This document shows positions 4,851 through 25,373 of a stretch of 64,000 nt of DNA, one piece after another (the first letter of the stretch is position 1; each line of letters begins with the position of its first letter). Under the pieces are notes generated by a model. It was not told the origin of the DNA. It saw only the letters and a list, made by a program, of their open reading frames with translations, and searched no databases. The stretch is taken from positions 1 through 64,000 of the forward strand of contig OZ037842.1 of the NCBI GenBank assembly GCA_964035575.1, given 5' to 3'. A program made the position numbers and the translations under genes. This DNA comes from Rhynchopus sp. YZ270_cl-10. Its lineage: Eukaryota.

Positions 4851-4992
4851 TCATGCATGCTTTTCCGTGCCATTCAGGTTCTCCAGTGAATTTTAGGTTA
4901 CATTGCGTGTTTACATATCATTACTCATACCTTAATCGCATCAACACAAAGTAGGTATAACCAAACCACATATTAGCGAGCTTTCTTCTTGT

Positions 4993-5203
4993 GCGGGTTT
5001 GCGGGTTTGCGGGTTTGCGGGTTTGCGGGTTTGCGGGTTTGCGGGTTTGCGGGTTTGCGGGTTTGCGGGTTTGCGGGTTTGCGGGTTTGCGGGTTTGCGG
5101 GTTTGCGGGTTTGCGGGTTTGCGGGTTTGCGGGTTTGCGGGTTTGCGGGTTTGCGGGTTTGCGGGTTTGCGGGTTTGCGGGTTTACGGGTTTGCGGGTTT
5201 GCG
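4993..5203. repeat. Second (GGGTTTGC)n array, about 26 units
   Basis: Same octamer, again with one GGGTTTAC variant near its 3' end. Confidence 0.98.
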
Positions 5204-5959
5204 AAAAATACAATATCTCTCAGCAGGGAAGCATGGTCAACAACACATGGCCACTTATGCCCACCCACAAAGCACCAACGGAGGCGGCAGGTGCAACGAA
5301 AAACCACACCAACCAGATAACGCAACCTAGAACCTGCAGATTCCCGCACACCCACACCCACCAGCCAGCTTATCAACCACACCAACCAGATAACGTTGCC
5401 TGAACCCCGCGCACCCGCACAACCACCAGCCGGATAACGCAACCTAGAACCCGCAAACCCGCGCACCCGCGAACCCGCAAACCCGCACCAACCACCAGCC
5501 AGATAACGCAACCTAGAACCAGATAACGTGCCCGAACCCCGAGAACCCTATCAACCACACCAGCCGGATAACGCTGCCCGAACCCCGCGCACCCGCACCA
5601 CCACACCAGCCAGATAATGCAACCTAGAACCCGCAAACCCGCGCACCCGCGAACCCGCAAACCCGCACCAACCACCAGCCAGATAACGCAACCTAGAACC
5701 AGATAACGTGCCCGAACCCCGAGAACCCTATCAACCACACCAACCAGATAACACTGCCCGAACCCCGCGCACCCGCACCACCACACCAGCCGGATAACGC
5801 AACCTAGAACCCGCAAACCCGCGCACCCGCGAACCCGCAAACCCGCACCAACCACCAGCCAGATAACGCAACGTAGAACCAGTGAAGTGCCTGAATAGCA
5901 CCTGAATGGCCACACGAACCTGTAGATAATGACACAAACTAGGTCCAGTGTCTCTCAAG

Positions 5960-6547
5960 ATCGGTCACCAATATTGCCAGACTGGATTGGGTGCACATGG
6001 TGACATAGTGGTACCAAATCGGGTGCACAGGGTGCCCCCAAATGGTGCACAGGGTGCCTTTTGGGCTCTGAATCGGGTGCACAGGGTGCCCCCAAAATAA
6101 GGGTGCACAGGGTGCCCCTGAAAATCGGGTGCACAGGGTGCCCCCAAAAATATGGTGCACAGGGTGCCAATACGGGTTTGCAATCGGGTGAACAGGGTGC
6201 CCCCCACGTTATAAGCCCCGGCTAAAAAGCACCCTGTGCACCCGATTTTTTGGGGGCACCCTGTGCACCCGATCGGCACCCTGTGCACCCGAGTGGCCAA
6301 CGTGGGGGGCACCCTGTGCACCGGATTGCGAACCCATAATGGCACCCTGTGCACCGGATTAAAAGGGGCACCCTGTGCACCGGATTTGTAGGGGCACCCT
6401 GTGCACCGTTTTTTGCGGGCACCCTGTGCACCGGATCCAGTGCCAAAAAGGCACCCTGTGCACCTTTTGGGGGCACCCTGTGCACCGGATTTGGTACCAC
6501 TATGTCACCCTGTGCACCGGATTCAGGCTGCCAATATTGGTCACCGA
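5960..6547. repeat. Inverted array of the motif GGCACCCTGTGCACC (about 8 copies reversed, then about 11 forward)
   Basis: GTGCACAGGGTGCC repeats at 6023-6200 and GCACCCTGTGCAC at 6229-6517. The array is bounded by TCGGTCACCAATATTGCCAG and CTGCCAATATTGGTCACCGA. Confidence 0.9.
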
Positions 6548-7108
6548 GTTTGAGAAACTAGGTTACGGTCTCTGGCTAGTGGTTGTGCGGGTTTGCGGGT
6601 TTGCGGGTGCGCGGGTTTGCGGGTTCTAGGTTGCGTTATCCGGCTGGTGTGGTGGTGCGGGTGCGCGGGGTTCGGGCAACGTTATCTGGCTGGTGTGGTT
6701 GTGCGGGTGCGCGGGGTTCGGGCAACGTTATCTGGTTCTAGGTTGCGTTATCTGGCTGGTGGTTGGTGCGGGTTTGCGGGTTCGCGGGTGCGCGGGTTTG
6801 CGGGTTCTAGGTTGCGTTATCCGGCTGGTGTGGGGGTGCGGGTGCGCGGGGTTCGGGCAACGTTATCTGGTTCGTGGTTGCGTTATCTGGCTGGTGGTTG
6901 GTGCGGGTTTGCGGGATCCAGGTTGCGTTATCCGGCTGGTGTGGTTGTGCGGGTGCGCGGGGTTCGGGCAACGTTATCTGGTGCGGGTGCGCGGGAACCT
7001 GCTGGTTTAGGTTGCGTTATCTGGTTCTAGGTTACGGTATCCGGCTGGTGGTTGGTGCGGGTTTGCGGGTTTGCGGGTGCGCGGGTTTGCGGGTTCTAGG
7101 TTGCGTTA

Positions 7109-7110
<2 letters not shown>

Positions 7111-7144
<34 letters not shown>

Positions 7145-7590
7145 CCCCAGGCTCGCTTTTTTTATCTACATCCAGTGACAGAGGGGGTACTTACTAGTCA
7201 AGCGAGTATGTAAACAGCTAGATGTCCAGACAAGGGCACTTTACTATTGTACTGGCAAGACAGTGCCTGAAAACACAGTTAGTGGCACTAAAATAGAAAG
7301 CATGTGGGACAACTACAACCAACACTTCCCTGCAAATAAGCAAAAGGGTCGTATGTGAGTGCAATTTTTCCCAAAAGGAAAAGGGGAGGGGATGGGACGG
7401 GAGGGTTGCTCTGTCTACCGGTGTAGTTATATTTTGCTTTGTCTTGGGGAGGGGAGGGGAGGAGAAGGAGGGGATTGAGTGAGCCGTTTCCTCTGTAACA
7501 CACAAACAAATAAAAAGGAAGTTCCATAATCTTTTTAGTAGTTTTCTTTTTGGTGAAAATTTTTGAGAACTTCTGTAAGTGTGACCTGAC
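7111..7590 (-). mobile_element. 5'-truncated copy (3' UTR plus poly(A)) of the CRE-like retrotransposon
   Basis: A T32 run, then ~450 bp almost identical to 10244-10691. It is flanked by TTGCGTTATC at 7101-7110 and 7595-7604 (candidate target-site duplication, TSD). Confidence 0.92.
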
Positions 7591-7955: not shown

Positions 7956-8828
7956 GTGTACTGTGTACTGTGTACTGTGTACTGTGTACTGTGTACTGTG
8001 TACTGTGTACTGTGTACTGTGTACTGTGTACTGTGTACTGTGTACTGTGTACTGTGTACTGTGTACTGTGTACTGTGTACTGTGTACTGTGTACTGTGTA
8101 CTGTGTACTGTGTACTGTGTACTGTGTACTGTGTACTGTGTACTGTGTACTGTGTACTGTGTACTGTGTACTGTGTACTGTGTACTGTGTACTGTGTACT
8201 GTGTACTGTGTACTGTGTACTGTGTACTGTGTACTGTGTACTGTGTACTGTGTACTGTGTACTGTGTACTGTGTACTGTGTACTGTGTACTGTGTACTGT
8301 GTACTGTGTACTGTGTACTGTGTACTGTGTACTGTGTACTGTGTACTGTGTAATGTGTACTGTGTACTGTGTACTGTGTACTGTGTACTGTGTACTGTGT
8401 ACTGTGTACTGTGTACTGTGTACTGTGTACTGTGTACTGTGTACTGTGTACTGTGTACTGTGTACTGTGTACTGTGTACTGTGTACTGTGTACTGTGTAC
8501 TGTGTACTGTGTACTGTGTACTGTGTACTGTGTACTGTGTACTGTGTACTGTGTACTGTGTACTGTGTACTGTGTACTGTGTACTGTGTACTGTGTACTG
8601 TGTACTGTGTACTGTGTACTGTGTACTGTGTAATGTGTACTGTGTACTGTGTACTGTGTACTGTGTACTGTGTACTGTGTACTGTGTACTGTGTACTGTG
8701 TACTGTGTACTGTGTACTGTGTACTGTGTACTGTGTACTGTGTACTGTGTACTGTGTACTGTGTACTGTGTACTGTGTACTGTGTACTGTGTACTGTGTA
8801 CTGTGTACTGTGTACTGTGTACTGTGTA
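7956..8828. repeat. (GTACTGT)n heptamer array, about 124 units
   Basis: Perfect 7-bp period with two identical variant units (C to A) at ~8353 and ~8633, 280 bp apart. Confidence 0.99.
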
Positions 8829-8963: not shown

Positions 8964-10000
8964 TTTTTTTTCTCTTTTATGTACTTGGTCTTTTTTTGTA
9001 TGTGAGAATAGAAGAAAGGAAAAAGGAAGAATGGAGTAAACAATAAAGACAATAAAATGAACAGGAAAATGGAAAAGGAAAAAGGAAATGAAAAAATGAT
9101 GACCAAAAAAGGTCGGTGTTTCAAGTTTTAGTATAAAAGGTGGGCGGTAAAGTAAAGTAAGTGGCCACTTCCTCCTAAACAAAACAAGAAACTGCATCGT
9201 GTGTTTGTTTTTTATTCTTTTTAATCAATTTGAATACACAGGCGTCACACTTATGGGGCAAAAAAAGGAAAAAAAGAAGACCTAATCCTCCTTACTTAAA
9301 AGAAGGGAAGGGAGAATAAAAAACACACGTGCCCATTGTTTCGTTGTCTGCAGGATGTCTTGTTTTAGTGCCTCACCTGGAAAAAGAAAAATGGATTCCA
9401 CTCAGTAAAAATAGCACACCTGTTGAACACACGTCAGGCCAGGAACAGAAGAAAAGCAAACGCTTCCACGAATGGAAGCAAAAGAAAAGTGTGGTGAAAA
9501 AACCCTTTTGGCCAAGGTGGTCTTGACTCTCTGTCTACATACTTTGGGGATGCATGAAAAAATGAAACTAGATGATAGATAACAAGGAGTGTGCGAGAGT
9601 GGCCCTTCTCCAAGCTAAACAAAAAGCAAACACCCTCCACCCATCTGATCCCGCCCACAAACACAAACAATCACGACAGAAAACAAAACAGGCAGAGGAT
9701 GACCAGGGTAGGTTTTACTTGGACAGCGAACCTCTGCCTTGATTCCTCTCACGCTCAGCAGGCGAGTAGGGACAGTTGCCTCAACTCTCCAGACCTGTGC
9801 TGCAACACAGGCCTGCACCTTTAGCCGCTTTTCGCTTCATGCCCCTCATCTGGCGCACTACTAACGGGGGACGCCCCATGTAGGCACATCGGTAGGATTT
9901 CGTCTTAACATAGTTTTTTGTGTAAAAAAAAATGAACCCCTGTAAAAAAAAATGAACCCCTGTAAAAAAAAATGAACCCCTGTAAAAAAAAATGAACCCC
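8964..10000 (-). mobile_element. Putative non-autonomous (SINE/RIME-like) retroelement, ~1 kb, non-coding
   Basis: It interrupts a block that is contiguous at 21115-21268, with CCCTGTGCAC duplicated at 8954-8963 and 9998-10007 and a short T run at 8964. Its minus-strand 5' end GGGGTTCATTTTTTTTTACACA resembles the large element's GGGGACCATTTTTTACACA. The first 20 nt are repeated 4 times (9921-10000). Confidence 0.7.
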
Positions 10001-10072: not shown

Positions 10073-10117
<45 letters not shown>

Positions 10118-10184
10118 GCACACTACTTTGTGAGCGGAAAGTGTCACGTCGTTCACTCACCCAACCGTGCTCCGCAACACCACC

Positions 10185-10229
<45 letters not shown>

Positions 10230-11216
10230 GTGTTGTTCAACTTAGCCCTAGGCGCGCTTTTTTTATCTACATCCAGTGACAGAGGGGGTACTTACTAGTC
10301 AAGCGAGTATGTAAACAGCTAGATGTCCAGACAAGGGCACTTTACTATTGTACTGGCAAGACAGTGCCTGAAAACACAGTTAGTGGCACTAAAATAGAAA
10401 GCATGTGGGACAACTACAACCAACACTTCCCTGCAAATAAGCAAAAGGGTAGTATGTGAGTGCAATTTTTCCCAAAAGGAAAAGGGGAGGGGATGGGACG
10501 GGAGGGTTGCTCTGTCTACCGGTGTAGTTTTATTTTGCTTTGTCTTGGGGAGGGGAGGGGAGGAGAAGGAGGGGATTGAGTGAGCCGTTTCCTCTGTAAC
10601 ACACAAACAAATAAAAAGGAAGTTCCATAATCTTTTTAGTAGTTTTCTTTTTGGTGAAAATTTTTGAGAACTTCAGTAAGTGTGACCTGACCCGACTGAC
10701 TGACACCCAAAGGGGAAAACAACAATAACGCACAACAAAATCAACAACAACAATGGTGGGTCTCGTGCTTACCTGTGGTGGTTTTGAAAAATGAAAAATT
10801 GAAATTGACCTTCACAAGGTAAAAATGAAAAACTAAAGGAGTGAAAAAAGGAACTCAAAGGACAAGAGTTCTGTACAAACTCTACTCTACTGCACAATCT
10901 ATAAAAGTGGCCCAATGGCTCCTGATGCCACTGGCCTGGCTCTTAGACAGGTCTTACTCCGAGACTGCCCTCTACCCTCAGAGCCTCGTCCAAGGGGTAA
11001 GGGCCGTCGCTGGGGTAGACCCGTCCTAGCCAGCAGCCAACCAAAAATATTAACAAATAGGAAGGGGGGCGGAAAGGGGGGAAAGGGGGGGCAAACCCCA
11101 AAGGATGAAAAGAACCAAAAACACAAAATAAAAAGGGTTAAAAATAAACATGGGGCAAACTGTCATTCTCTACACGCTTCTACACACACACTCTCACCCT
11201 CTAACTCTCTAACTCT

Positions 11217-14200
11217 CTAATTCTTTTTATTCCCCTTTTTCCCCTTCCTTCCTCCGCTCTGTCTCCCCTTCTGTCCACCACCGCGACCATTGCGCCCTCT
11301 CTGCACCTCCTGGGGCGAGAGCACATGCTGCGTCGCTTGTGCCACTGCGTCGGTGAACACGTTCGACGTGTTGGACCTACCCTGAGCTGCATGGCGCTGG
11401 GGTCCTTTGGGAGCTGGGGAAGGAGCAGGTTGGGCGGAGGAGGTTGCATTGCCACGGCCTGCCGATGAGGAGGAGGAAGAAGTGGAGACTGCAGGTTGGG
11501 CGATGGAGGTTGTAGTGCCACGGCCTGCAGAGGTGGAGGAAGAAGAAGAAGAAGAAGAAGAGGAGGCTTGAGGTTGTCGGCCTATTCCCTCTCGAGCCGC
11601 TCGTGCCTCATTCTCCCTCCTTGTACTCTCCGCTGCAAAGGCCTGCCCCCTACTGCTCCGGTTGTCCGTCAGGGCATGCAACGTCGACTTTGCCTTGCAC
11701 TTTTCCTGAACCGACCACTCATGCAAACCCACCACCTTCATCACCTCATACCACTGAGTGAAAGTAGCGGTAGAGAGGGGGAGTGACAACAAGGGTCTGC
11801 CATCCTGTTTCTCTCCCTGACGGTAGTGGAACAGGGAGATCCACTTCGTCACAGAAGAAGGCACCGGCGACCCCATGGTGAGGCACGGGAAAAGACCCCC
11901 CCTCTCCGTCCGCTCCTCCTCCGTCCACATCCAAGCCTCGCTCTGCGCCCTCAGCAATTCCCTCACCCTCGCTTGCTTCTTCTGGTCAGGGATGCCTTCC
12001 ACTGACAGAGAATGCGAGCGATCCGCCCCCTCCATCGCGGTGTCGAGGTCCTCCTCCTGCTCCTGCTCATCATCATCCATCTCCTCCACCTTCACACGCA
12101 CCTCGGTGTCTGCCGCCTCGGCCTGTCGCCCCACCTCCTCCTCCAGCTGATCCCGAGAAGGGGTTCCCCAGCTGACCCTGCCTTCCCGAACGACGATGAC
12201 CGCGCTGGTCTTGCCCCAGGTATCGCAGTATCCGGCCTCCCCTGCTATCTTCCTAACCGCCTGACGGGCGACCACCGACTCCGGGCAATCACCGTCCCCC
12301 TCCCCGTTCCCACTCCACGGCTGCTGTGTCGCCCAGCAGTACAGGAACTCGCCCGGGCACGGAGAAGCACCTTGAGGACCAAAGAGAGCCATCCAGTCGC
12401 CGACACAGTCAGGTTCAAGTCCTTCAGGGTCGTCGCCCACCGCTCTCCGCACCGCATGGCAGGGGAGGAATAGCCGCCCTTCGCACACCACCCCAAAGCA
12501 CCGCCCGTATGCCACCATGCGTTCTGCCTCCAGCTGTCGGGAGAGGTTCACCGCCGTCAACAACAGAGTGGTCGCCTTCTGCTCCGACTCATGCTTAGCT
12601 GCGATGGCGTAATGCCTCTCGCAGCGTTGCCTGTCATACTCCGCCCGGAGCGACTCTCCTGCTTCGGGGTGCCGATCGCAGTCTTCCAAGTACTGCGCAT
12701 GCATCTTCTTCGCGTCCTCTGCGAGTTCCCGCTTGTGCCTGGCGGTCAGCTCCTCCACACGATGCCTGTCCGCCGCCTTCGCCTGGTCCAGACGCACATT
12801 CTGTTCCTCCAGGAAACGACTCAACTCCTGCTGGCGGTCGCCAAAAGTGCCCCGAAGCGCGGCCAAATCCGGTCCCCACGACCGACGATGCTCCCGCCGT
12901 ACCTCCAGGGCTTGCTGCCACGCGTCCGACGCACGCTGCAACGCTTCCTTCTTATCCTGGTCCGCCTTTTGTTGTTGCTGCTTCTGCTGTTTCCGTTGCT
13001 TCTCGTGCTTCTGCTGCTTCTGTTCTGCCTGCTGCCCCTCTTCGCCCGCCATTGGCGTGTCTACCTCCTCGACGTCCTCGCCCTCGGGAGCTGGCACTGC
13101 TGGAGAAGGAGCCCGTTTAGGTGGTGGGTCTCCGCTCCCCTCCGCAGAGGCAGCCTGAGCCGGAACATTCGAGTGCAAAAAAGACAGGGCACTGAAGTAT
13201 TCCGCCCTGCCAATTTGCGACAGAGGGCAGTGCTTGGACCCCTGAGCGCAGTGCAGACATGCCAAGCCACCACACGTGTGACAGCAGAAGTGTGCGTCCG
13301 ACGCATCGAAGAGCTTGCTGCATTGTTCGCACTGCAGGAAAGTGTTCGACGCCTCCGCCTCCCTCGCTCCCACAAAAGCCATGGGGCGCTCTGACTGGCA
13401 CTCCCCCTTACCACCTGTGGCCTCAAAAGACAGGATGTGCTGCTGCAGAGCCGGGTCCATGGTGAGGGGCTCGTAGTGTCCCGGGATACTGCCGGATCCA
13501 TCTGCCGCATCCTGATCACCCGAGTGGAGGAGAAGGACCACTGCCTTAGGCCGTTTTCTTGGCACCATCAGAGAAGGGCGGGCGAACTCGTTGAGGATGA
13601 CCACAGATACCTCAAGAGCCTCCCCTGCCCCCGCCACTGCAATGGCATCCGCCCACGTACGCTGGTCTCCTCTGTCCCCACTCGTCATCAGCCGCTGCCA
13701 GACCCCAAAATTAGGGACAGCCGCACTCGACAGATCAGCGCGGCCCTGGACCTTCTTCACTGCCGCCTGGCGCAGACCCTCCACCGTCAAATCCGTGCGC
13801 CCGGTGGCGAAGAGCAAAGCCTCAAAAGCACAGTCCCCCGCCACAAACGACCAAGTCACCTTCGAGGCTCCCAGCTTGGCCGCCTGCTCCGTCGCCCGAG
13901 GCCTCTGCGCTGCCGGGCACTCACGCAAAAACTCCCACTCACGCACCACATCGAGACCAGGCCCTTCCGGAATCACGGTGGCCGAATCGAACCTCCCGGT
14001 CCGCTTCCTCGGTGGCTCCACGTGGTCCGGCTTCACGTCCCTCTTGCGCTTCCCCTGCTGCTCCTCCGTTCGGTCTGCAGGACGACTCATATCGTCGTCA
14101 GGGTTCGCATCGTCACAGAGAGGTTCCACGGCCCCTGCACTGCGGCGTCCAAACCGGTCCATGTCCTCTGCAGACGGTGCCACATCTACCTCCACACACG

Positions 14201-17200
14201 GCTCCCGCTTCAGGGTGGCAATCCCTACACACATAGCACCCCGCTCCAGAAAGGAAGATGCGACCTTTTTCTGGTACGCCACCGCAATGCTCTCCCGGAT
14301 GCGCAACTCTGCCGACCCTGTCAGGTGCGACGTCTGTCCCGTCGTCAGGCCTCCAAGCTGCGCAATCAAGAGGTTCGCCTCGTCGCCTGCACCCCCGAAG
14401 GCTTCAAACACAATAGGGGAGAACTTGGTATTGATCTTGTTCAAATCCCGCTCGTGCTTCTCCCGTTTGACCTGGCCCTGGTTCTTCGCCGACCAGCCCA
14501 CAAACTTCGAGGCCCCTGTTCTGTAGGAAGGCAAGGTGGGGCACACGTGGGTGATGTCCAAACAACGAGGTCCATTTTCCGCCACTCCTACTGGGAGGTA
14601 GACGTCGCCTGGCCGCTTCTTCGACTCCAACTCCACTCGCACGGTCTCCTCCAAAGCAGGGTCCAAGCCCGCCCCTTGAGCAGCTCGGTACACCGAATCC
14701 CGCAAGGCGTTGTGGCGGGCGACGCGGTGTTTGGAGTAGGGGCAGCCAAAGGTGTGGTCGCCAAAGGAGTCCATGACAACCCTTTTCTGCCCCCCCTGAC
14801 ATGCCGAGCAAGTCGTTCCCTCCGCATGGATGGCCACCCCTAGTCGGAAACGGGTCACAACCGCAAAATCCGCTGAAGACATCTGGTTCCTTGCTGAGGG
14901 TGTCGCCGTGAGGTACGTCCCGGAAAGCGGCAGGAGAAGGGACTTCATCCGTGCTCGGTCTCGCATGCAGAGCTGTTGCATCAACTTGTCTGCCTGGGCG
15001 TCAATCACCGCAGATGACAGACTCTGCTGCTCCAGGATCTTCTTCGGCTGGGCCCTGTCCACGTGAAACGCCACCGGTACCCTGGAGTTGTACTCCTCAG
15101 CCGCGCTGTTCCATCTCTCCTCATCCCAGGTGAAGGCAGGGTCCAAGGCCTGCGACAGTTGCAGGTTCCCTGACTGAGAGGCGAGGGACGCAGCTGTCCG
15201 ATGGTCCACGGTGCGACGGATACCCAGCCCCCCAAGCGCCACAGGAAGCGCCGCCTGCGCCCTTGCCAACTCCGGCAGCGCCCCATCCGGGTCATGCAGA
15301 AGCGCAGCCAGGCACCTGTCGATCAGGTCGTCAAAGGCCGTCAGGTACTCCGCGCACTGTGGGATCCCCCGCATGTAGAACACCATGCGGCAGTAGCCTT
15401 CGCAGTATCTCAGTACGTAGAAGGCTGCCTGGGAGTCCCCGAGGTCCACAAGGGCTTCCAGGTTGCGGCGGGAATCGTCCACCTTCTGGGCCATGTACTC
15501 CTCGCAGAAAGCCACAGACCCAATGGGGATGCCCAAGAAGTCGAACCCATCCACATCCAACAGCCGGAACCCGCCTTCACCCATGGCGTCCTGTCCACCC
15601 TCGTTCAACGTGAACCCCACGGCCTCGAGATCCTCCTTGGAGACGCCACCAGTGGAGATGAGCTCACACTTGTTCGCGTTCACCTCCAACCCCAGTTCGG
15701 AGCTACGAGTGCACAGAACCTGGTACGCCTCAAAAACCGCCTTAGGGGACCCCCGCAGAGAGCCGTCATCGAGGTACCACAAAGTCCCATCCAGGCCTGG
15801 GTGCCCCTTCAGCTCTAGCGCCATCTGGTGGATGGTCAGGGAGAAGAGAAGCGGGCCCAAGGGATCTCCTTGTTGAGCTCCGCGCTGTGACCTTATGGTA
15901 TCCCCACCATAAAACAGGCTGGAGGGCTCCAGGTAACACCATCGCACCCATGGGGCCAGCTCGGGGAGGTTCGCGTCGACCGCTCTTAGCATCGACAGGC
16001 GGTCTACGCAGTTGAACGCGTTACGGTAGTCAATTTTCAAAATGACTTTACCTTTTCCGCGGTTGCGCACGGCGTACTGCGAGATAACATCAGTCGCCAC
16101 TGCCGCCCCCCTTGCCGTTGCCACCCCCACCTGGTTCCCTCGAAGAAGAAGCGTCCTAGCAGGCACCCGCACTCGCGCCGACAGAATCTTTCCCACCAGT
16201 CTGCGGAGAGTGTCCCCAACCGCAATCGGTCGCACGTCCTCCTCCAGGCCCGGCCCCTTTGCAGGCTTCCGGAGAGCCACCAAGTTAGCGCCGGCGAAGA
16301 ACTCAGCCACCTCCACTGGAGCATTTCCTCGTGCCAAAGACGTCAACACTGCGGCCAGCGCTGCCAAAGTGCCCTTAGCCCGCCTCTGTAGGCAAAGTGT
16401 ACGAAGGTGCGCGCCCGTCACGTTCGAGGGACCCGCCGCCGATGACTTCGGCATGCTCCGCAGGGCCTTCATCACCTCCACCACTGTCACCGGTGGGACC
16501 TCCTGAGGCTGGGGCCAATCCGCCTGCTCCAGGGCCTTGGAGTCGGCAGCGGCTGGGTGCTTCGTCTGAAGCTTTTCCAGCGTCGCCGGTGTCTGTGGGG
16601 CGAGGCCGTCGCTGGTAGCGCATGACATGGCCTGGCTCGGGAGTCCTGCTCTCGCTTTGGCGATGGTGCGCTTCCGTCTCCCTTCGTCAGTGTCTTCATC
16701 CGACCACCCCGAGGGCCTTGGCTTCCGCTCCTCTACCGTTTGCTCCCACAGGGCGACATACTGGCCAGCCTTCCAAGCCTCCAAGTCCTTCCCCCAGGTG
16801 CTCGTCAAACGTCGCTCCTGGTCCTTGCCCCCTCGTTCTGTCCGTGTCCGGTGCAACACTGTGAAGAACAGTGCAAGGCGCTTCCAGGCCACCTCGTCCT
16901 GGTACTCCAGGATGTCCATGAGGACCCTCAGGAAGAGCTCGCTGTACAGCTGTAGGTGTTTGTCTGGGCACCCGCCCTTCAGCTGGATCCTGGTGGTCCC
17001 CATGACTTCAAAGGAGGGGAGGTCATCCTGATCTGTCAGCATTCCTCGACTGGAGGGAGACGGAGCGGTGAAGCCTTCTTCGCCAAAGTGCACCGTACAG
17101 GTGTTGCAGACCTCCTTGCTCTGCGGCAATAGCATGTCGCACTGATCGTTCGCACAGCGCGACATGCCCAAGTGGCCCAACAGCTCGTCGGGGATGTACG

Positions 17201-18872
17201 CTCCATCCGCCTGGTGGCGACGCATATGCTGCAGCAAGCCCTTACGAGACAGGCCCCCGACCGCATCACTCGAAGACAAAATTCCCGCTCTGCATCCATC
17301 AAAGGGGCAGAACACCCGATCCGCATTGATGTGCCCCAGCTTGGTAGCCAGGGGGGCGGTGGTGGTGGTGTTGGTGGGGATGATGCCATCCAAATGCGCT
17401 GTGTCCAGCACTGCCTGCCGAGCCTCCTTCCTCATCTTCTCTGCCATCCCCTCCTTGGTCTTCCCCACCTCCGGGACAAGCTCCACTGCCTCAAAGTGAG
17501 AGTCACAGAGAGCGATGACGACCGTGGGAAGTTTCGCTTGGAAGCTCTCCGCGTACGACTTGGCGACTCTTTTGCTACCAGGGGTGATGCGCACGAGGGG
17601 GTTCTCTTCCGACGCCTGCACCACCACGATGTTGATGCGGGATGCTGTCGCGGTGAGCTGAAGCCCCAAGTGGTTGAGGTGGGCCTCGCCGGTCACACCA
17701 TTGGCAAACTCCGTCATGGCCTCCTGCGACCCCAGCACCTGCACCAGGCGGTTCGACACCTCCACTGCTGTGTCATACAGCTGCTTGCGCATTGCCCTCA
17801 CGTCCGGCTGCGTGTCGTGGTCCCAGAGGTGTAGTGCCACATAACCACAATCATTAGTAGACACGTTGGGGATGCGTTTAGCTCCAAACTTCGCCAGAGT
17901 CGCGTCCACAGACACCGCCTGCTCTGTATACGCAGGAGCGTTCACGTTTGCGCACCCACCGGTCAACGCAAACGGGGACAAGCTTACCGGGTGCTCCGGA
18001 TCAGCAGGGGCAGGGCGCAGGTCCCAGGGCGTCACCGCTCGCCACAACAACGACAGCAAGACCAGTAGGGACACCGCCAGCATGCCAAATGCCATCCCGA
18101 TCCTACGAGTCCACCTGCGTGCTGCCACACGGCGCACCTCCAAGAGAAGAACCCAGCCAAGTGGGCGCGCGACGCCGACCAGTGCCACAAAACCCGCCAA
18201 ACAACCACCTGCGGACCATGCAACCCACACCCACTCGGCTGCACGCACCGACAACTGACCCACCCCCATCACACTGGCTCTCACCAAGCTGGCAGCCACT
18301 CGGATCCCTCCGGTCCATCGGTGCACTCGCTCGCTCGCCCCTTCCAGCCACCGCCACCCCCTGCGTGCGCGGCACAGTCCCCGCAGCAGACCCACCCCCA
18401 GCACCTCCGCGTCCCGAAACAGCGCACAACCCAAAGCATGTGGCGCTGACCTCCCAAGCTCAGACCCCACAAAAACCAGAACCCAGATGGCCACACACTG
18501 CAAAGCACCTCTCAACGCATCGGCGACCCTGATCCTGCGGAAAACTGGGTGCGCTGCCGGGGAGGGCGGACGATTGCAGGGCGCCTTGCGCCGACGGAGC
18601 CTGCCCGCCTGTGACTTGGTCCAGTTCAAGGACCGGTGTCCTCGTCGCGTCCTCCTGGTCCTCCTGCCCACCAGCCACAAAATGAGATGACTGAGGGTAG
18701 GGGCGCGTCTGTCCTTCCACAGATCCAGGACCGCGAACGACACAAATACTCCCCACTCAGGTGCCTCGGCTACCCAGCAGGGGTCAGGCTGACGCAAGGA
18801 GGTGAAGACCTCCCAGAGGTTGCACGGTGTGAGTCGAACCAAAACTCTATCTGTACACACCCCTTTTGCCAC
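11217..18872 (-). CDS. Retrotransposon polyprotein: OTU-like protease, zinc fingers, reverse transcriptase, restriction-like endonuclease, second OTU-like protease, Cys-rich finger, coiled coil
   Basis: RT motifs RPIAVGDTLRRLVGK, KIDYRNAFN, GAQQGDPLGPLLF, WYLDDG (~15762-15779). RLE motifs CSAC..DHTFGC, RHNALRD, RPGD..LDITH..KREKH..PIVFEAFG. C2H2 finger CPFDGC..HMRRH. OTU-like NDCGY..SHF and GDCAF..WAD..GHY. The annotated start is GTG and the first in-frame ATG is at 18269, so the true start is uncertain. Confidence 0.95.
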   Translation of the reverse strand: MAKGVCTDRVLVRLTPCNLWEVFTSLRQPDPCWVAEAPEWGVFVSFAVLDLWKDRRAPTLSHLILWLVGRRTRRTRRGHRSLNWTKSQAGRLRRRKAPCNRPPSPAAHPVFRRIRVADALRGALQCVAIWVLVFVGSELGRSAPHALGCALFRDAEVLGVGLLRGLCRARRGWRWLEGASERVHRWTGGIRVAASLVRASVMGVGQLSVRAAEWVWVAWSAGGCLAGFVALVGVARPLGWVLLLEVRRVAARRWTRRIGMAFGMLAVSLLVLLSLLWRAVTPWDLRPAPADPEHPVSLSPFALTGGCANVNAPAYTEQAVSVDATLAKFGAKRIPNVSTNDCGYVALHLWDHDTQPDVRAMRKQLYDTAVEVSNRLVQVLGSQEAMTEFANGVTGEAHLNHLGLQLTATASRINIVVVQASEENPLVRITPGSKRVAKSYAESFQAKLPTVVIALCDSHFEAVELVPEVGKTKEGMAEKMRKEARQAVLDTAHLDGIIPTNTTTTAPLATKLGHINADRVFCPFDGCRAGILSSSDAVGGLSRKGLLQHMRRHQADGAYIPDELLGHLGMSRCANDQCDMLLPQSKEVCNTCTVHFGEEGFTAPSPSSRGMLTDQDDLPSFEVMGTTRIQLKGGCPDKHLQLYSELFLRVLMDILEYQDEVAWKRLALFFTVLHRTRTERGGKDQERRLTSTWGKDLEAWKAGQYVALWEQTVEERKPRPSGWSDEDTDEGRRKRTIAKARAGLPSQAMSCATSDGLAPQTPATLEKLQTKHPAAADSKALEQADWPQPQEVPPVTVVEVMKALRSMPKSSAAGPSNVTGAHLRTLCLQRRAKGTLAALAAVLTSLARGNAPVEVAEFFAGANLVALRKPAKGPGLEEDVRPIAVGDTLRRLVGKILSARVRVPARTLLLRGNQVGVATARGAAVATDVISQYAVRNRGKGKVILKIDYRNAFNCVDRLSMLRAVDANLPELAPWVRWCYLEPSSLFYGGDTIRSQRGAQQGDPLGPLLFSLTIHQMALELKGHPGLDGTLWYLDDGSLRGSPKAVFEAYQVLCTRSSELGLEVNANKCELISTGGVSKEDLEAVGFTLNEGGQDAMGEGGFRLLDVDGFDFLGIPIGSVAFCEEYMAQKVDDSRRNLEALVDLGDSQAAFYVLRYCEGYCRMVFYMRGIPQCAEYLTAFDDLIDRCLAALLHDPDGALPELARAQAALPVALGGLGIRRTVDHRTAASLASQSGNLQLSQALDPAFTWDEERWNSAAEEYNSRVPVAFHVDRAQPKKILEQQSLSSAVIDAQADKLMQQLCMRDRARMKSLLLPLSGTYLTATPSARNQMSSADFAVVTRFRLGVAIHAEGTTCSACQGGQKRVVMDSFGDHTFGCPYSKHRVARHNALRDSVYRAAQGAGLDPALEETVRVELESKKRPGDVYLPVGVAENGPRCLDITHVCPTLPSYRTGASKFVGWSAKNQGQVKREKHERDLNKINTKFSPIVFEAFGGAGDEANLLIAQLGGLTTGQTSHLTGSAELRIRESIAVAYQKKVASSFLERGAMCVGIATLKREPCVEVDVAPSAEDMDRFGRRSAGAVEPLCDDANPDDDMSRPADRTEEQQGKRKRDVKPDHVEPPRKRTGRFDSATVIPEGPGLDVVREWEFLRECPAAQRPRATEQAAKLGASKVTWSFVAGDCAFEALLFATGRTDLTVEGLRQAAVKKVQGRADLSSAAVPNFGVWQRLMTSGDRGDQRTWADAIAVAGAGEALEVSVVILNEFARPSLMVPRKRPKAVVLLLHSGDQDAADGSGSIPGHYEPLTMDPALQQHILSFEATGGKGECQSERPMAFVGAREAEASNTFLQCEQCSKLFDASDAHFCCHTCGGLACLHCAQGSKHCPLSQIGRAEYFSALSFLHSNVPAQAASAEGSGDPPPKRAPSPAVPAPEGEDVEEVDTPMAGEEGQQAEQKQQKHEKQRKQQKQQQQKADQDKKEALQRASDAWQQALEVRREHRRSWGPDLAALRGTFGDRQQELSRFLEEQNVRLDQAKAADRHRVEELTARHKRELAEDAKKMHAQYLEDCDRHPEAGESLRAEYDRQRCERHYAIAAKHESEQKATTLLLTAVNLSRQLEAERMVAYGRCFGVVCEGRLFLPCHAVRRAVGDDPEGLEPDCVGDWMALFGPQGASPCPGEFLYCWATQQPWSGNGEGDGDCPESVVARQAVRKIAGEAGYCDTWGKTSAVIVVREGRVSWGTPSRDQLEEEVGRQAEAADTEVRVKVEEMDDDEQEQEEDLDTAMEGADRSHSLSVEGIPDQKKQARVRELLRAQSEAWMWTEEERTERGGLFPCLTMGSPVPSSVTKWISLFHYRQGEKQDGRPLLSLPLSTATFTQWYEVMKVVGLHEWSVQEKCKAKSTLHALTDNRSSRGQAFAAESTRRENEARAAREGIGRQPQASSSSSSSSSSTSAGRGTTTSIAQPAVSTSSSSSSAGRGNATSSAQPAPSPAPKGPQRHAAQGRSNTSNVFTDAVAQATQHVLSPQEVQRGRNGRGGGQKGRQSGGRKGKKGNKKN

Positions 18873-20337
18873 ACCCGCATCATCACACAGCCACTCTGTC
18901 CTTCTCGCCCCGCAAGGCTGACCCCGAACACCAGCATACCTCGCTCACCACCCCCTAGGTTGTTGTCGCTGATGTTGTTGCTGCGTCTGCTGTTGATGTT
19001 GGTGCTGCTGTTGGACCTGCTGTTGGAACTGCTGCTGGAACTGCTTTTGGAGACGCTGTTGGAACCGCTGCTGCAGAAGTCTGTGGAACTGCTGTTGAAA
19101 CTGCTGTTAAGCCTACTGTTGGAACTGCTGTTGGACCTGCCGTTAGAGCTGCTGCCGCAGAAGTCCTTGCTGATGAAACTGCTGTTGTGCCTGCTGTTGT
19201 GCCTGTTGCTGGAACTGCTTTTGGAAACGCTGTTGGAACTGCTGCTGCAGAAGCCATTGGAACTGCTGTTGAAACTGCTGTTGTTGTGCCTGCTGTTGGA
19301 ACTGCTGCTGGACCTGCTGTTGGAACCGCTGCTGCAGAAGTCTGTGGAACTGCTGTTGAAACTGCTGTTAAGCCTACTGTTGGAACTGCTGTTGGACCTG
19401 CCGTTAGAGCTGCTGCCGCAGAAGTCCTTGCTGATGAAACTGCTGTTGTGCCTGCTGTTGTGCCTGTTGCTGGAACTGCTTTTGGAAACGCTGTTGGAAC
19501 TGCTGCTGCAGAAGCCATTGGAACTGCTGTTGAAACTGCTGTTGTTGTGCCTGCTGTTGGAACTGCTGCTGGACCTGCTGTTGGAACCGCTGCTGCAGAA
19601 GTCTGTGGAACTGCTGTTGAAACTGCTGTTAAGCCTACTGTTGGAACTGCTGTTGGACCTGCCGTTAGAGCTGCTGCCGCAGAAGTCCTTGCTGTTGAAA
19701 CTGCTGTTGTTGAGCCTGCTGTTGGAACTGCTGATGGACCTGCCGTTGGAGCTGCTGCTGCAGAAGTCTTTGGAACTGCAGTTGAAACTGCTGTTGTGCC
19801 TGCTGTTGGAACTGCTGCTGGAACTGCTTTTGGAAACGCTCGTGGAACTGCTGCTGCAGAAGCCGTTGGAACTGCTGTTTAAACTGCTGTTGTGCCTGCT
19901 GTTGGAACTGCTGTTGGACCTGCTGTTGGAACCGCTGCTGCAGAAGCCTTTGGAACTGCTGGTGAAAAAGCTGTAGAGCCTGCTGTTGGAACTGCTGCTG
20001 TAAAGGCCTTTGGAACTGCTGCTGCTGCACACCAGGGGTGATACTGGGACCCCACCCAGGACTCCGAAGATTTCGTTTTTGCTGCTATCACAGTTGCAGC
20101 CACTGATGTGGTTGGGCATACATTGCCTCTTTTTGGGGATATCATGGAGGGAAGGGGGGTGTGGGTTGTTATGACAACAGTTCTTTGCTTTGTTGCCTCC
20201 ACACACGTTTTTGTTGCTGCTATCAAAGCTGCAGCTGCTTGGGTTGTTGGGCTCAAGAGGCCTCTTTTTGGGGTAAAAAAGGGGGGGAAGGGGGCTCCTG
20301 CTACTGCTGTTGATGCAGCTTAAGTTGTTGCTCCTGT

Positions 20338-20378
<41 letters not shown>

Positions 20379-20827
20379 TTGTTGCTGCTGCTCTTGTTGC
20401 TGCTGTTGCTGCTGCTGCAGTTGCAGCTGGTGTAGCATATGTTGTTGCTGCTGTTGCTGCTGCTGCTGCTGTTGCTGCTTTTGTTGCTGCTGTTGCTGCT
20501 GTTGCTGCTGTTGCTGCTGTTGCTGCTGTTGCTGCTGTTGCTGCTGTTGCTGCTGTTGCTGCTGTTGCTGCTGTTGCTGCTGTTGCTGCTGTTGCTGCTG
20601 TTGCTGCTGTTGCTGCTGTTGCTGCTGTTGCTGCTGTTGCTGCTGTTGCTGCTGTTGCTGCTGTTGCTGCTGTTGCTGCTGTTGCTGCTGTTGCTGCTGT
20701 TGCTGCTGTTGCTGCTGTTGCTGCTGTTGCTGCTCTTGTTGTTGCTGCTGGTGTAGCTCCTGCTGCTGCTGCTGATGCAGACATGCAGCACCACCCACAA
20801 CGCCCCCAAAAGGGCCTTCCTCCTCAT
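18770..20827 (-). CDS. Possible ORF1 of the retrotransposon, 685 aa, Ser/Asn-rich low complexity with a signal-peptide-like N terminus
   Basis: First ATG downstream of the SL/ribozyme (20827, MRRKALLGALWVVLHVC). The frame stays open through all repeats and overlaps ORF2. It could equally be a by-product of CAG/CAA-type repeats. Confidence 0.35.
19010..19990. repeat. 261-bp tandem repeats made of 12-bp subunits (CTGCTGTTGGAA) in the element's 5' region
   Basis: CTGTGGAACTGCTGTTGAAACTGCTGTTAAGCC at 19081, 19342 and 19603. Confidence 0.9.
20330..20775. repeat. (GCTGCTGTT)n / CAG-CAA triplet tract
   Basis: The 9-bp period is pure from ~20482 to 20733 and degenerate on both sides. Confidence 0.97.
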
Positions 20828-20881: not shown

Positions 20882-21033
20882 GCCTTGCGCTTCGCCGGCC
20901 TGCACTCCTCTACCGTTGCCCAGGGACCGCCCCGTGGAGGCGTACAAGGCTCACAATAAAACAAAGGAAAGGGGGAGGGAGGGAGGGTAAAAAGAAAGGA
21001 CAAGTGTGTTGTAATGTGTAAAAAATGGTCCCC
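20882..21033 (-). ncRNA. HDV-like self-cleaving ribozyme (predicted fold)
   Basis: Minus strand: P1 GGGGACC (21033-21027) / GGTCCCT (20928-20922) with a G1-U wobble. J1/2 is ~76 nt and pyrimidine-rich. P2 GCCTTGTAC (20950-20942) / GCGCAAGGC (20890-20882), P3 GCC/GGC, L3 TCCACGG, P1.1 CC/GG, then GCAAC, a short P4 and J4/2 GGCGAA (catalytic C equivalent at 20894). Confidence 0.88.
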
Positions 21034-21071
21034 AATGAAGTACAGAAACTGTAGCTTTAGAAATCGTTGGT
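21033..21071 (-). other. Spliced-leader (SL) exon sequence, diplonemid type, not followed by an SL intron
   Basis: Minus strand reads ACCAACGATTTCTAAAGCTACAGTTTCTGTACTTCATTG (39 nt). It closely resembles the Diplonema SL exon as I recall it (AACCAACGATTTAAAAGCTACAGTTTCTGTACTTTATTG) and the kinetoplastid SL 3' half. The next bases are GGGACC, not GT. Confidence 0.9.
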
Positions 21072-21343: not shown

Positions 21344-22183
21344 TGCAAGGATGCTGTGCAAGGATGCTGTGCAAGGATGCTGTGCAAGGATGCTGTGCAA
21401 GGATGCTGTGCAAGGATGCTGTGCAAGGATGCTGTGCAAGGATGCTGTGCAAGGATGCTGTGCAAGGATGCTGTGCAAGGATGCTGTGCAAGGATGCTGT
21501 GCAAGGATGCTGTGCAAGGATGCTGTGCAAGGATGCTGTGCAAGGATGCTGTGCAAGGATGCTGTGCAAGGATGCTGTGCAAGGATGCTGTGCAAGGATG
21601 CTGTGCAAGGATGCTGTGCAAGGATGCTGTGCAAGGATGCTGTGCAAGGATGCTGTGCAAGGATGCTGTGCAAGGATGCTGTGCAAGGATGCTGTGCAAG
21701 GATGCTGTGCAAGGATGCTGTGCAAGGATGCTGTGCAAGGATGCTGTGCAAGGATGCTGTGCAAGGATGCTGTGCAAGGATGCTGTGCAAGGATGCTGTG
21801 CAAGGATGCTGTGCAAGGATGCTGTGCAAGGATGCTGTGCAAGGATGCTGTGCAAGGATGCTGTGCAAGGATGCTGTGCAAGGATGCTGTGCAAGGATGC
21901 TGTGCAAGGATGCTGTGCAAGGATGCTGTGCAAGGATGCTGTGCAAGGATGCTGTGCAAGGATGCTGTGCAAGGATGCTGTGCAAGGATGCTGTGCAAGG
22001 ATGCTGTGCAAGGATGCTGTGCAAGGATGCTGTGCAAGGATGCTGTGCAAGGATGCTGTGCAAGGATGCTGTGCAAGGATGCTGTGCAAGGATGCTGTGC
22101 AAGGATGCTGTGCAAGGATGCTGTGCAAGGATGCTGTGCAAGGATGCTGTGCAAGGATGCTGTGCAAGGATGCTGTGCAAGGA
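21344..22183. repeat. (TGCAAGGATGCTG)n 13-mer array, about 64 units
   Basis: Perfect 13-bp period. Confidence 0.99.
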
Positions 22184-25020: not shown

Positions 25021-25233
25021 TACCTGTGTACCTGTGTACCTGTGTACCTGTGTACCTGTGTACCTGTGTACCTGTGTACCTGTGTACCTGTGTACCTGTG
25101 TACCTGTGTACCTGTGTACCTGTGTACCTGTGTACCTGTGTACCTGTGTACCTGTGTACCTGTGTACCTGTGTACCTGTGTACCTGTGTACCTGTGTACC
25201 TGTGTACCTGTGTACCTGTGTACCTGTGTACCT
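25021..25233. repeat. (TACCTGTG)n octamer array, about 26 units
   Basis: Perfect 8-bp period. Confidence 0.99.
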
Positions 25234-25373
25234 GGGTGACTGGGTACGTACCTGGGTAAATGTGACCAGGTGACCTGGTCAGACCTCTGACCAGCGCACC
25301 GTGACAGCACAGGCTGCCGAAAACGGATTTTGGCTTTCGGAAATAATTTTACGGCAATTAAATATCAAATTCC

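What the first reader, a model, noticed from the sequence alone, without database searches (positions are those of the whole stretch)
11217..18872. Retrotransposon polyprotein with two OTU-like protease domains bracketing ZnF-RT-RLE and a long extra C terminus
Seen: OTU-like catalytic motifs upstream of the zinc fingers (NDCGYVAL, Cys ~17848; SHFEAV, His ~17497) and again downstream of the endonuclease (GDCAFEAL, Cys ~13831; WADAIAV; GHYEPL, His ~13477). These are followed by a CxxC..CxxC..CxxC finger, a coiled coil and ~500 aa of unknown sequence. Established: some RLE elements carry a single accessory cysteine protease (e.g. Ulp1-like in NeSL), and the RLE is normally near the C terminus. 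Inference: the two proteases might cut the RT-RLE core out of the polyprotein or deubiquitinate host chromatin or defence factors.
Basis: partly seen in the sequence, partly recalled or inferred. Interest (0 to 1): 0.75.

Follow-up and report, generated by a model that had tools for sequence, protein, structure and literature searches.

The report
Retrotransposon with two ubiquitin-protease domains
A multi-copy jumping gene of a single-celled eukaryote encodes one very long protein with a ubiquitin-protease (OTU) domain on each side of its copying enzymes; the first domain likely trims the protein at a conserved ubiquitin-like cut site and the second likely strips ubiquitin from proteins, which offers a direct test of why transposons carry such enzymes.

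Summary
Confirmed. 18944-11217 (-) is a 2,575-codon open frame of a 10.8-kb CRE-like non-LTR retrotransposon (21033 to poly(A) at 10228) with 187 cluster members, full-length ones 99% identical. Both OTU domains are real. The C-terminal one folds like yeast Otu2 (Z 14.6); the N-terminal one is supported less strongly (low-confidence model, profile match, homologs). The OTU-RT-RLE-OTU layout recurs in 4 of 258 RT relatives, inside one OTU-bearing RT clade next to a Diplonema papillatum SLACS-like protein. Two sister families carry a dead plus an intact C-terminal OTU-zinc-finger module. New clue: a ubiquitin-tail-like [LM]xGG motif sits 31-37 residues before the N-terminal OTU cysteine in 6 of 9 proteins and before 0 of 9 C-terminal OTUs. 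So one N-terminal cut is likely; excision of the RT-RLE core is not supported. Also found: an HDV-like ribozyme fold and a spliced-leader copy at the 5' end, and a frameshift near 18830 in this copy. Ten paper searches gave no OTU-bearing non-LTR element; OTUs are known in Ginger1 and Helentron DNA transposons. No activity is shown. New variant of a known kind.

The parts
21033..21071 (-). Copy of a euglenozoan spliced-leader exon (39 nt) at the 5' junction; its last G is also the first G of the ribozyme fold
   Evidence: 36 of 39 columns match SL entry 'Euglenozoa 14' in PMC3795323 (compared by eye); only such match in the window; depth spike at 21032-21071 in 3 of 4 runs, and other contigs continue from it into a GT-starting sequence
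20882..21033 (-). HDV-like ribozyme fold, predicted cleavage 5' of G21033; P1 21033-21027/20928-20922, P2 20950-20942/20890-20882, P3 20941-20939/20931-20929, P1.1, catalytic C 20894, 76-nt J1/2
   Evidence: Rfam RF02682 24.6 bits, E 0.96, below cut-off 44; pairs listed; descriptor scan 1 hit in window, 0 in 40 shuffles (descriptor written after seeing the site); X1 contig ends and an X3 contig changes flank at 21033
18770..20827 (-). Upstream frame (685 aa from ATG 20827, 288 Ser and 116 Asn) built on internal tandem repeats; in sibling copies its 3' part runs on into the main frame
   Evidence: P0004 and P0048 also begin with Ser/Asn-rich sequence in frame
18826..18830 (-). Frameshift in this copy relative to siblings
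   Evidence: 2-base gap in contigs of X1, X3, X4; X8 had no depth there; 9 full-length siblings start in the upstream frame
11217..18944 (-). Main open frame, 2,575 codons stop to stop
   Evidence: cluster of 187 members, 9 of 15 listed are 2,567-2,571 aa and 99.1-100% identical to the window protein past its first 60 alignment columns
17967..18825 (-). Poorly conserved Arg/Trp-rich leader with one or two hydrophobic stretches
   Evidence: Kyte-Doolittle 19-residue peaks at aa 241 and 281; similarity only to two sister families
17955..17966 (-). LTGG, ubiquitin-tail-like motif; predicted cut after Gly330
   Evidence: [LM]xGG 31-37 residues before the catalytic Cys in 6 of 9 N-terminal OTU proteins
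17478..17936 (-). OTU domain 1 (Cys366, His483, Glu at His+2)
   Evidence: homolog in D. papillatum P0090 scores Pfam OTU E 3e-4
17097..17309 (-). N-terminal zinc fingers (CCHH-type and a four-Cys finger)
   Evidence: motifs at aa 546-577 and 597-616; 39-40% identity in sister families
15525..16244 (-). Reverse transcriptase core (YLDD at 15776)
   Evidence: Pfam PF00078 E 2.4e-15; nearest solved structures L1 ORF2p and R2 proteins
14265..14810 (-). CCHC knuckle and restriction-like endonuclease (RHN..E..RPGD..D..K)
   Evidence: motifs fit the SLACS/CRE pattern quoted in PMC12857005, with a longer knuckle spacer; Pfam blank
13455..13898 (-). OTU domain 2 (Cys1705, His1823, Glu at His+2)
   Evidence: paralog in P0003 passes the Pfam OTU cut-off, 28.9 vs 23.3 bits
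13227..13331 (-). Seven-Cys cross-brace-like finger travelling with OTU 2; weak FYVE/RING-like resemblance
   Evidence: Pfam FYVE E 0.0025, below cut-off; PDB E 0.07-0.17; follows the OTU in all 7 C-terminal modules aligned
12570..13052 (-). Charged predicted coiled coil, family-specific
   Evidence: composition; no match in sister families
11655..11957 (-). Small conserved C-terminal domain of unknown fold
   Evidence: 27-37% identity in families 2, 3 and P0005; no Pfam, Atlas or credible PDB match
10229..11216 (-). 3' UTR, 988 nt
   Evidence: its last 460 nt recur at 7590-7140
10075..10228 (-). Poly(A) 41, a 72-nt spacer, second poly(A) 41, then the GGTGCACAGGG repeat
7111..7590 (-). 5'-truncated second copy (3' end plus poly(A) 32) between near-perfect 12-13-bp direct repeats
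   Evidence: 97% over 488 bp; junctions

Best explanation
This is a multi-copy CRE-like non-LTR retrotransposon whose single long protein carries an OTU cysteine-protease domain on each side of its RT and endonuclease; the first OTU likely cuts the protein once at a ubiquitin-tail mimic just ahead of itself, and the second likely works as a deubiquitinase that stays attached. Steps. (1) Shown: domain order, intact catalytic residues, many near-identical copies, poly(A) ends, a 5'-truncated copy with short direct repeats. (2) From established knowledge of RLE elements: it copies itself by target-primed reverse transcription. (3) Inferred: the RNA 5' end is set by the HDV-like ribozyme at G21033; this copy came from an RNA that carried the spliced leader. 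(4) Inferred: translation starts somewhere in a long, variable, hydrophobic leader, and cleavage after LxGG gives a defined OTU-ZnF-RT-RLE-OTU-ZnF protein wherever translation began. (5) Inferred: the C-terminal OTU-finger module removes ubiquitin from the element protein or from proteins at the integration site; it is kept under selection, since lineages that duplicated it kept one intact copy and let the other decay.
For: Fold: OTU 2; OTU 1. Cys and His invariant in 5 of 5 N-terminal domains aligned at 23-41% identity and in 4 of 4 intact C-terminal domains at 28-37%. Both OTUs present in 4 of 258 RT relatives (window, P0003, P0004, P0194); 13 of 258 have at least one. 10 of the 11 members of one RT clade (support 0.999) carry an OTU. 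[LM]xGG lies 31-37 residues before the Cys in 6 of 9 N-terminal OTU proteins, exactly LRGG in P0194, while flanking residues differ; background is 118 motifs in 273,349 residues. Families 2 and 3 and P0196 have a dead C-terminal OTU followed by an intact one. Viral OTU proteases of arteriviruses and tymoviruses both process their polyprotein and deubiquitinate (PMC3968130 passages). Other CRE-like lineages carry USP (P0009, P0284), Ulp1 (P0012, P0317) or a separate OTU (P0285), different folds with a shared ubiquitin or SUMO-removing job.
Against: No activity, RNA or protein data. The OTU 1 model is poor and OTU 1 lacks the Trp that P0090, P0194 and P0195 keep. Both window domains have Glu at His+2 and no Asp three residues before the Cys, unlike the common OTU pattern (recalled). 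3 of 9 N-terminal OTU proteins lack the motif at that place (P0260 none, P0090 125 residues upstream, P0285 starts 13 residues before the Cys). Several CRE-like proteins with no OTU also have LRGG ahead of the RT (P0006, P0177, P0237, P0264, P0272), so a host enzyme could make the cut. Most cellular OTUs and TYMV PRO do not cut linear ubiquitin peptide bonds, and the nairovirus OTU does not process its protein. This copy is frameshifted upstream of the site.
Confidence: 0.6

Rival explanations
1. Both OTUs are plain deubiquitinases aimed at host or element proteins, and the LxGG site is cut by a host deubiquitinase or not at all.
For: LRGG motifs ahead of the RT in CRE-like proteins without an OTU; USP and Ulp1 domains stand in for OTU in other lineages; nairovirus OTU does no processing; same role proposed for Ginger1 OTU/Ulp1 (PMC2836005 passages).
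Against: The motif sits at a fixed distance from the element's own OTU Cys in 6 of 9 proteins, and two different OTUs are kept side by side, which suggests different jobs.
Confidence: 0.27
2. The two proteases cut the ZnF-RT-RLE core out of the polyprotein at both ends.
For: Bracketing layout conserved in 4 families; viral OTUs can cut downstream sites.
Against: No [LM]xGG within 170 residues before 9 of 9 C-terminal OTU domains; downstream of them only 2 of 9 have one, at unrelated places; the window's only other LxGG (aa 655) is not kept in sister families. The site found lies before OTU 1, which would leave OTU 1 on the core.
Confidence: 0.07
3. The OTU domains are captured passengers, or act only as ubiquitin-binding modules without catalysis.
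For: Catalytically dead C-terminal OTUs persist in families 2, 3, P0196 and P0075; about 245 of 258 RT relatives show no OTU (many are fragments).
Against: Cys and His are kept at 22-41% domain identity; 3 of the 4 dead domains are followed by an intact one, the fourth (P0075) ends its record; all 10 full-length family-1 proteins checked keep all four residues.
Confidence: 0.05
4. The long frame is an assembly chimera of a retrotransposon with host OTU genes.
For: The window is repeat-rich.
Against: Single contigs span 10242-18041 in X1 and 10242-18356 in X4; 9 full-length siblings and 3 diverged families share the layout.
Confidence: 0.01

Closest known systems
CRE clade of RLE non-LTR retrotransposons (trypanosomatid SLACS, CZAR, CRE1/2; fungal Cnl1, MoTeR, FoTeR)
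   Same: One frame with zinc fingers, RT and RLE, internal repeat regions, poly(A) tail (PMC12278014 passages); RLE motif pattern (PMC12857005 passages); best named RT hit is a D. papillatum protein labelled SLACS 132 kDa.
   Different: Two OTU domains, a 1,010-residue tail after the RLE, an LxGG site, an HDV-like fold; this copy is not in a spliced-leader gene. 'OTU' and 'protease' occur 0 times in the main text of both papers.
NeSL and Utopia-1_TSP (N-terminal Ulp1-like protease); Dualen (Josephin-like protease, recalled, not confirmed by any search)
   Same: RLE non-LTR elements with an accessory cysteine protease of the ubiquitin/SUMO-removing type before the RT (PMC4640811 passages).
   Different: One protease, of another family, N-terminal only; no Ulp1 match in the window protein.
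Ginger1 transposases and Helentrons with OTU domains
   Same: Transposon-borne Pfam OTU domains with a proposed role in transposition (PMC2836005, PMC4067079, PMC6431247 passages).
   Different: DNA transposons; a Ginger1 transposase has either OTU or Ulp1, not both; no self-cleavage site appeared in the passages read.
Viral OTU proteases (arterivirus PLP2, tymovirus PRO, nairovirus OTU)
   Same: OTU domain inside an RNA-replicon polyprotein; PLP2 and PRO process the polyprotein and deubiquitinate; nairovirus OTUs are among the fold matches.
   Different: No RT-RLE context; the best fold matches are cellular (yeast Otu2, OTUD1, OTUD3), so no viral origin is shown.
L1Tc/ingi and R2 elements
   Same: HDV-like ribozyme at the 5' end (PMC5814959 passages; PMC3774820 abstract start); L1Tc and ingi separate an N-terminal piece with a 2A sequence (PMC3708506 abstract start), a functional analogue of the predicted LxGG cut.
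   Different: Other clades; no OTU; ribozyme here has a 76-nt J1/2.

Membership tests
CRE clade (broad) | RT plus CCHC and restriction-like endonuclease in one frame | tested here: met
CRE clade (broad) | One or two zinc fingers before the RT, internal repeats, poly(A) tail | tested here: met
CRE clade (broad) | RT groups with reference CRE elements against R2/NeSL outgroups | tested here: inconclusive
   Tree groups it with the D. papillatum SLACS-labelled protein (clade of 15, support 0.928), but held no CRE1, CZAR, T. brucei SLACS, NeSL or R2 reference
CRE clade (broad) | Target-site duplication | tested here: inconclusive
   12-13-bp near-perfect repeat around the truncated copy; none clear for the full copy, whose flanks share an imperfect repeat of about 165 bp
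SLACS/CZAR/CRE1 family (trypanosomatid) | Insertion inside a spliced-leader RNA gene (between nt 11 and 12) | tested here: not met
   One SL match in the window, at the 5' junction only; neither 3' flank is SL sequence; other copies have other 5' flanks
SLACS/CZAR/CRE1 family (trypanosomatid) | RLE at the C terminus | tested here: not met
   About 1,010 residues follow it
OTU superfamily (PF02338) | OTU fold, domain 2 | tested here: met
   Z 14.6, rmsd 2.9, 136 aligned to 7pl7; Foldseek E 3e-5
OTU superfamily (PF02338) | OTU fold, domain 1 | tested here: met
   Weaker: Z 8.1, rmsd 5.2, 133 aligned from a pLDDT 47.7 model; 37 of 38 Foldseek rows OTU; hhalign 95% to domain 2 alignment; Atlas 0.93 to clusters with 19-20% PF02338
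OTU superfamily (PF02338) | Catalytic Cys and His in register | tested here: met
OTU superfamily (PF02338) | Third catalytic residue and oxyanion-hole Asp | tested here: inconclusive
   Glu at His+2, no Asp at Cys-3 in both; Asp at His+2 in P0194, P0285, P0287; TYMV PRO lacks these and is active
OTU superfamily (PF02338) | Pfam gathering score on the window's own domains | tested here: inconclusive
   No Pfam row for either; met by the paralog in P0003 (28.9 vs 23.3), near in P0090 (21.7)
OTU superfamily (PF02338) | Ubiquitin (iso)peptidase activity | not testable with these tools
   needs an assay
HDV-like ribozymes | P1, P1.1, P2, P3, P4 nested double pseudoknot with catalytic C | tested here: met
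   P1 7 of 7, P2 8 of 9, P3 3 of 3, P1.1 2 of 2 pairs; P4 weak, -1.8 kcal/mol; Rfam score below cut-off
HDV-like ribozymes | Self-cleavage | not testable with these tools
   needs in vitro transcription
NeSL clade | N-terminal Ulp1-like (C48) protease | tested here: not met
   The N-terminal protease has an OTU fold

The most novel reading that the evidence does not exclude
A lineage of LINE-type retrotransposons matures its own polyprotein like an RNA virus, using an OTU protease and a built-in ubiquitin-tail mimic, and carries a second OTU-zinc-finger module that duplicates and decays in a conflict with the host ubiquitin system. Ubiquitin-site processing may be common across CRE-like elements, with host enzymes used where the element has no OTU.
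Probability: 0.45. Interest if true: 0.85.

Novelty: new variant of a known kind. Interest (0 to 1): 0.68.

Why it matters
Many transposons carry ubiquitin- or SUMO-removing proteases, and the papers read offer only guesses about their job. Here a young, intact family has two such domains and a predicted cut site, so the question can be tested with small constructs. Non-LTR retrotransposon proteins are not generally thought to be processed by their own protease (recalled), and RLE elements are of interest as genome-writing tools, where the true N terminus is often unclear (PMC13580325 passages).

Tried and rejected
No whole genome is held, so copy number and insertion sites could not be counted directly. 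Pfam on eight separate segments found no OTU, RLE or C-terminal family. PDB sequence and profile searches with OTU 1 were empty; with OTU 2 alone only chance hits. The first profile-profile test of OTU 1 against OTU 2, with 3 sequences, gave only 21%; adding two homologs gave 95%. A homolog search with the OTU 2 alignment among 283-2,000-aa proteins returned 3 proteins, all from these families. The Atlas gave no usable hit for the conserved C-terminal domain, and its PDB hit to a PI3K subunit (E 0.007) lies in an acidic low-complexity stretch and was rejected. A complex prediction of OTU 1 with the 33-residue leader peptide gave no verdict (score 0.01, alignment not used). No RNA holder listed among the sequencing runs. 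No tRNA. Four look-ups of earlier findings gave one unrelated note and three blanks. A telomere reading of the 8-bp array at 1-1230 was set aside because its G-rich strand points inward. A site-specific SL-gene insertion was rejected for this copy; SL-gene copies elsewhere cannot be excluded with unitig data. USP-like identity of the P0197 tail is weak (Pfam E 0.032), and the ubiquitin-like reading of the P0006 segment had no Pfam support. The finger was not folded alone, so its family is open.
Full report
Observation. The minus strand holds an open frame of 2,575 codons from 18944 to 11217. Pfam finds only the RT (E 2.4e-15), also when eight segments are scanned alone, so the OTU claim needed other tests.

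OTU 2 (13898-13455). An alignment with three relatives keeps Cys and His. Its profile hits nairovirus OTU structures with both residues in register (best E 0.015; entry titles). The AlphaFold model of aa 1680-1920 has mean pLDDT 71.2. Foldseek gives 16 matches at E 0.001 or better, led by yeast Otu2 and OTUD1; VIA-align gives Z 14.6, rmsd 2.9 over 136 residues. A paralog in sister protein P0003 passes the Pfam OTU cut-off.

OTU 1 (17936-17478). Direct sequence tests were blank. The model is poor (pLDDT 47.7), yet 37 of 38 listed Foldseek rows are OTU structures, none at E 0.001, and the best Z is 8.1. The Atlas places it at 0.92-0.93 next to clusters in which 19-20% of members carry PF02338. 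With five sequences its profile matches the OTU 2 profile at 95%, E 2.2e-8; with three it was 21%. The homologous domain of a Diplonema papillatum protein labelled SLACS scores Pfam OTU at E 3e-4. I take the fold as established, with less certainty than for OTU 2.

Family. The window protein belongs to a cluster of 187 members; 15 were listed, 9 of them full length, 99.1-100% identical to the window protein and with all catalytic motifs intact. Two sister families (36 and 30 members, RT 58-59% identical) have OTU 1, then after the RLE a dead OTU (Cys to Ser, His lost) with its finger and an intact OTU with its finger. The dead one is the closer relative of the window's OTU 2 (36-38% against 28%). 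Shared contig lengths suggest that these three families sit in one assembly.

Distribution. I pooled the window protein and the RT hits into 258 proteins, leaving out cluster members and five near-copies or fragments of the window's own family (P0002, P0074, P0076, P0139, P0252). Only the listed best hits were available: 13 of 13, 120 of 817 and 150 of 14,461. Thirteen of 258 match an OTU profile; 4 have one on each side of the RT (window, P0003, P0004, P0194). P0196 repeats the dead-plus-intact pair. Of 230 with a detectable RLE, 197 end within 100 residues of it. In a FastTree RT tree (255 of 258 kept; P0014, P0287, P0288 dropped) the window sits in a clade of 11 (support 0.999), 10 of which carry an OTU; the eleventh, P0077, is a fragment that overlaps the OTU-bearing P0287 by eye. 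A wider clade of 15 (0.928) includes the D. papillatum protein. The tree has no classical CRE, NeSL or R2 reference.

Candidate cut site. A motif like the ubiquitin tail (LRGG, recalled) lies 31-37 residues before the OTU 1 cysteine in 6 of 9 proteins: LTGG, LVGG, LYGG, MQGG, LRGG, MRGG. The domains are 23-38% identical apart from one close pair, and the residues around the motif differ. Background is 118 motifs in 273,349 residues. Misses are P0260, P0090 (motif 125 residues upstream, before an extra finger) and P0285. None of 9 C-terminal OTU domains has the motif within 170 residues upstream. The six share ancestry, so this shows conservation, not six independent origins. Some relatives without an OTU have LRGG ahead of the RT too, which keeps a host enzyme in play.

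Ends of the element. A weak Rfam hit (E 0.96) led to a full HDV-like fold whose P1 partner lies 76 nt upstream, with G1 at 21033. A descriptor written for it hit once in the window and 0 times in 40 shuffles; it was written after seeing the site. Independently, the element contig of run X1 ends at 21033 and an X3 contig carries another flank from 21033 on. Directly upstream lies a 39-nt piece that matches a listed euglenozoan spliced leader in 36 of 39 columns (by eye), has a depth spike in 3 of 4 runs, and in other contigs runs on into a GT-starting sequence. Its own gene flanks are absent here, so this copy likely came from a leader-bearing RNA. The 3' UTR is 988 nt and ends in poly(A). A truncated copy lies at 7590-7111 between 12-13-bp repeats. 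An 11-bp motif present 24 times in the window (0.08 expected) follows the second poly(A) and borders another truncated copy in run X8. The target seems to be dispersed repeats, not spliced-leader genes.

State of this copy. Siblings begin at a Met that the window encodes at 18937 in the upstream Ser/Asn-rich frame, and 3 of 4 runs lack 2 bases at 18826-18830. The window copy is therefore frameshifted in the leader. All domains and the LTGG site lie downstream of the first in-frame ATG at 18269.

Host. The leader sequence, the D. papillatum hit, the same 8-bp repeat read at the end of that protein and long same-strand neighbouring frames point to a euglenozoan, likely a diplonemid. This is inference.

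Mechanism. Retrotransposition by target-primed reverse transcription follows from knowledge of RLE elements. I infer one cut after Gly330 by OTU 1, releasing the working protein from a variable hydrophobic leader, and a tethered deubiquitinase role for OTU 2. Arterivirus and tymovirus OTU proteases do both jobs; the nairovirus one does not process. Other CRE-like lineages carry USP, Ulp1 or a separate OTU. No step has experimental support. Confidence 0.6 for the mechanism, about 0.95 for the anatomy.

Literature. Ten searches gave no paper describing an OTU domain in a non-LTR retrotransposon; four asked this directly. Subscription journals and Repbase reports are not covered, and I did not search specifically for LRGG motifs in retrotransposons. 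Seen as passages: PMC11520807, PMC4640811, PMC12278014, PMC3795323, PMC2836005, PMC4067079, PMC3636483, PMC12857005, PMC6431247, PMC3968130, PMC13580325, PMC3482391, PMC5814959. PMC10161547: passages, section 8 and a term search of 7 supplements; it names SLACS-like gene models (745 in D. papillatum) without domain analysis, and its Additional file 1 could not be read. PMC3708506 and PMC3774820: abstract starts only. The Dualen protease is recalled.

Verdict. A real and conserved architecture: a CRE-like element, not a member of the SL-targeting SLACS/CZAR family, with two OTU domains, a candidate ubiquitin-like cut site and a 5' ribozyme fold. New variant of a known kind; interest 0.68.

Noticed in passing
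window 1-1230 and 4992-5203; proteins P0090, P0072: 8-bp satellite (154 and 26 copies). The same unit is read at the end of the D. papillatum protein P0090 and at the start of P0072, so truncated elements abut it in other records. Its G-rich strand points into the window, unlike a normal chromosome end.
   Followed up: partly
window 6022-6518: Two facing arrays of the GGTGCACAGGG motif (6 on +, 11 on -) inside a larger inverted-repeat region 5300-7110; looks like a non-autonomous foldback element with subterminal repeats.
   Followed up: no
window 8972-9997: About 1 kb insertion with an A-rich end, flanked by a 10-bp duplication of the same motif; possibly a non-autonomous retroelement.
   Followed up: partly
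window 10116-10187: 72-nt segment between two 41-base poly(A) runs; may be a 3' transduction or the tip of another element.
   Followed up: no
proteins P0003/P0034 and P0004/P0048: Families 2 and 3 share a nearly identical C-terminal 500 residues, and parts of their leaders are 78-83% identical to family 1 while the RTs are only 56-57% identical to it: signs of recombination between families. P0004 has two GG motifs, one degenerate.
   Followed up: partly
proteins P0009, P0284, P0197, P0012, P0317, P0285: Other CRE-like RT proteins carry a C-terminal USP domain, a Ulp1 domain (P0012 also SET, RNase H, Tudor) or an independently gained N-terminal OTU. Some may be gene-call fusions; P0009 has cluster members with the same layout.
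   Followed up: partly
proteins P0006, P0177, P0237, P0264, P0272: CRE-like proteins without OTU that have LRGG ahead of the RT, four of them RLRGG- or KLRGG-like; possible processing by host deubiquitinases.
   Followed up: partly
proteins P0006, P0145, P0204, P0207: MLLE (poly(A)-binding protein C-terminal) domains fused to CRE-like RT proteins.
   Followed up: no
run X5 laid on window 21032-21071: A joint linking two spliced-leader copies in tandem with 7 bases between them.
   Followed up: no
window 25898-53067: Same-strand long frames: three near-repeat proteins with a bacterial-type solute-binding domain and a transmembrane-like segment, then two adenylate/guanylate cyclases, one with Bmp and ephrin-receptor-like domains.
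   Followed up: no
window 1225-2777, 7956-8828, 21344-22183, 25021-25234, 62562-64000: Further near-perfect tandem arrays with 379-, 7-, 13-, 8- and 147-bp units.
   Followed up: no
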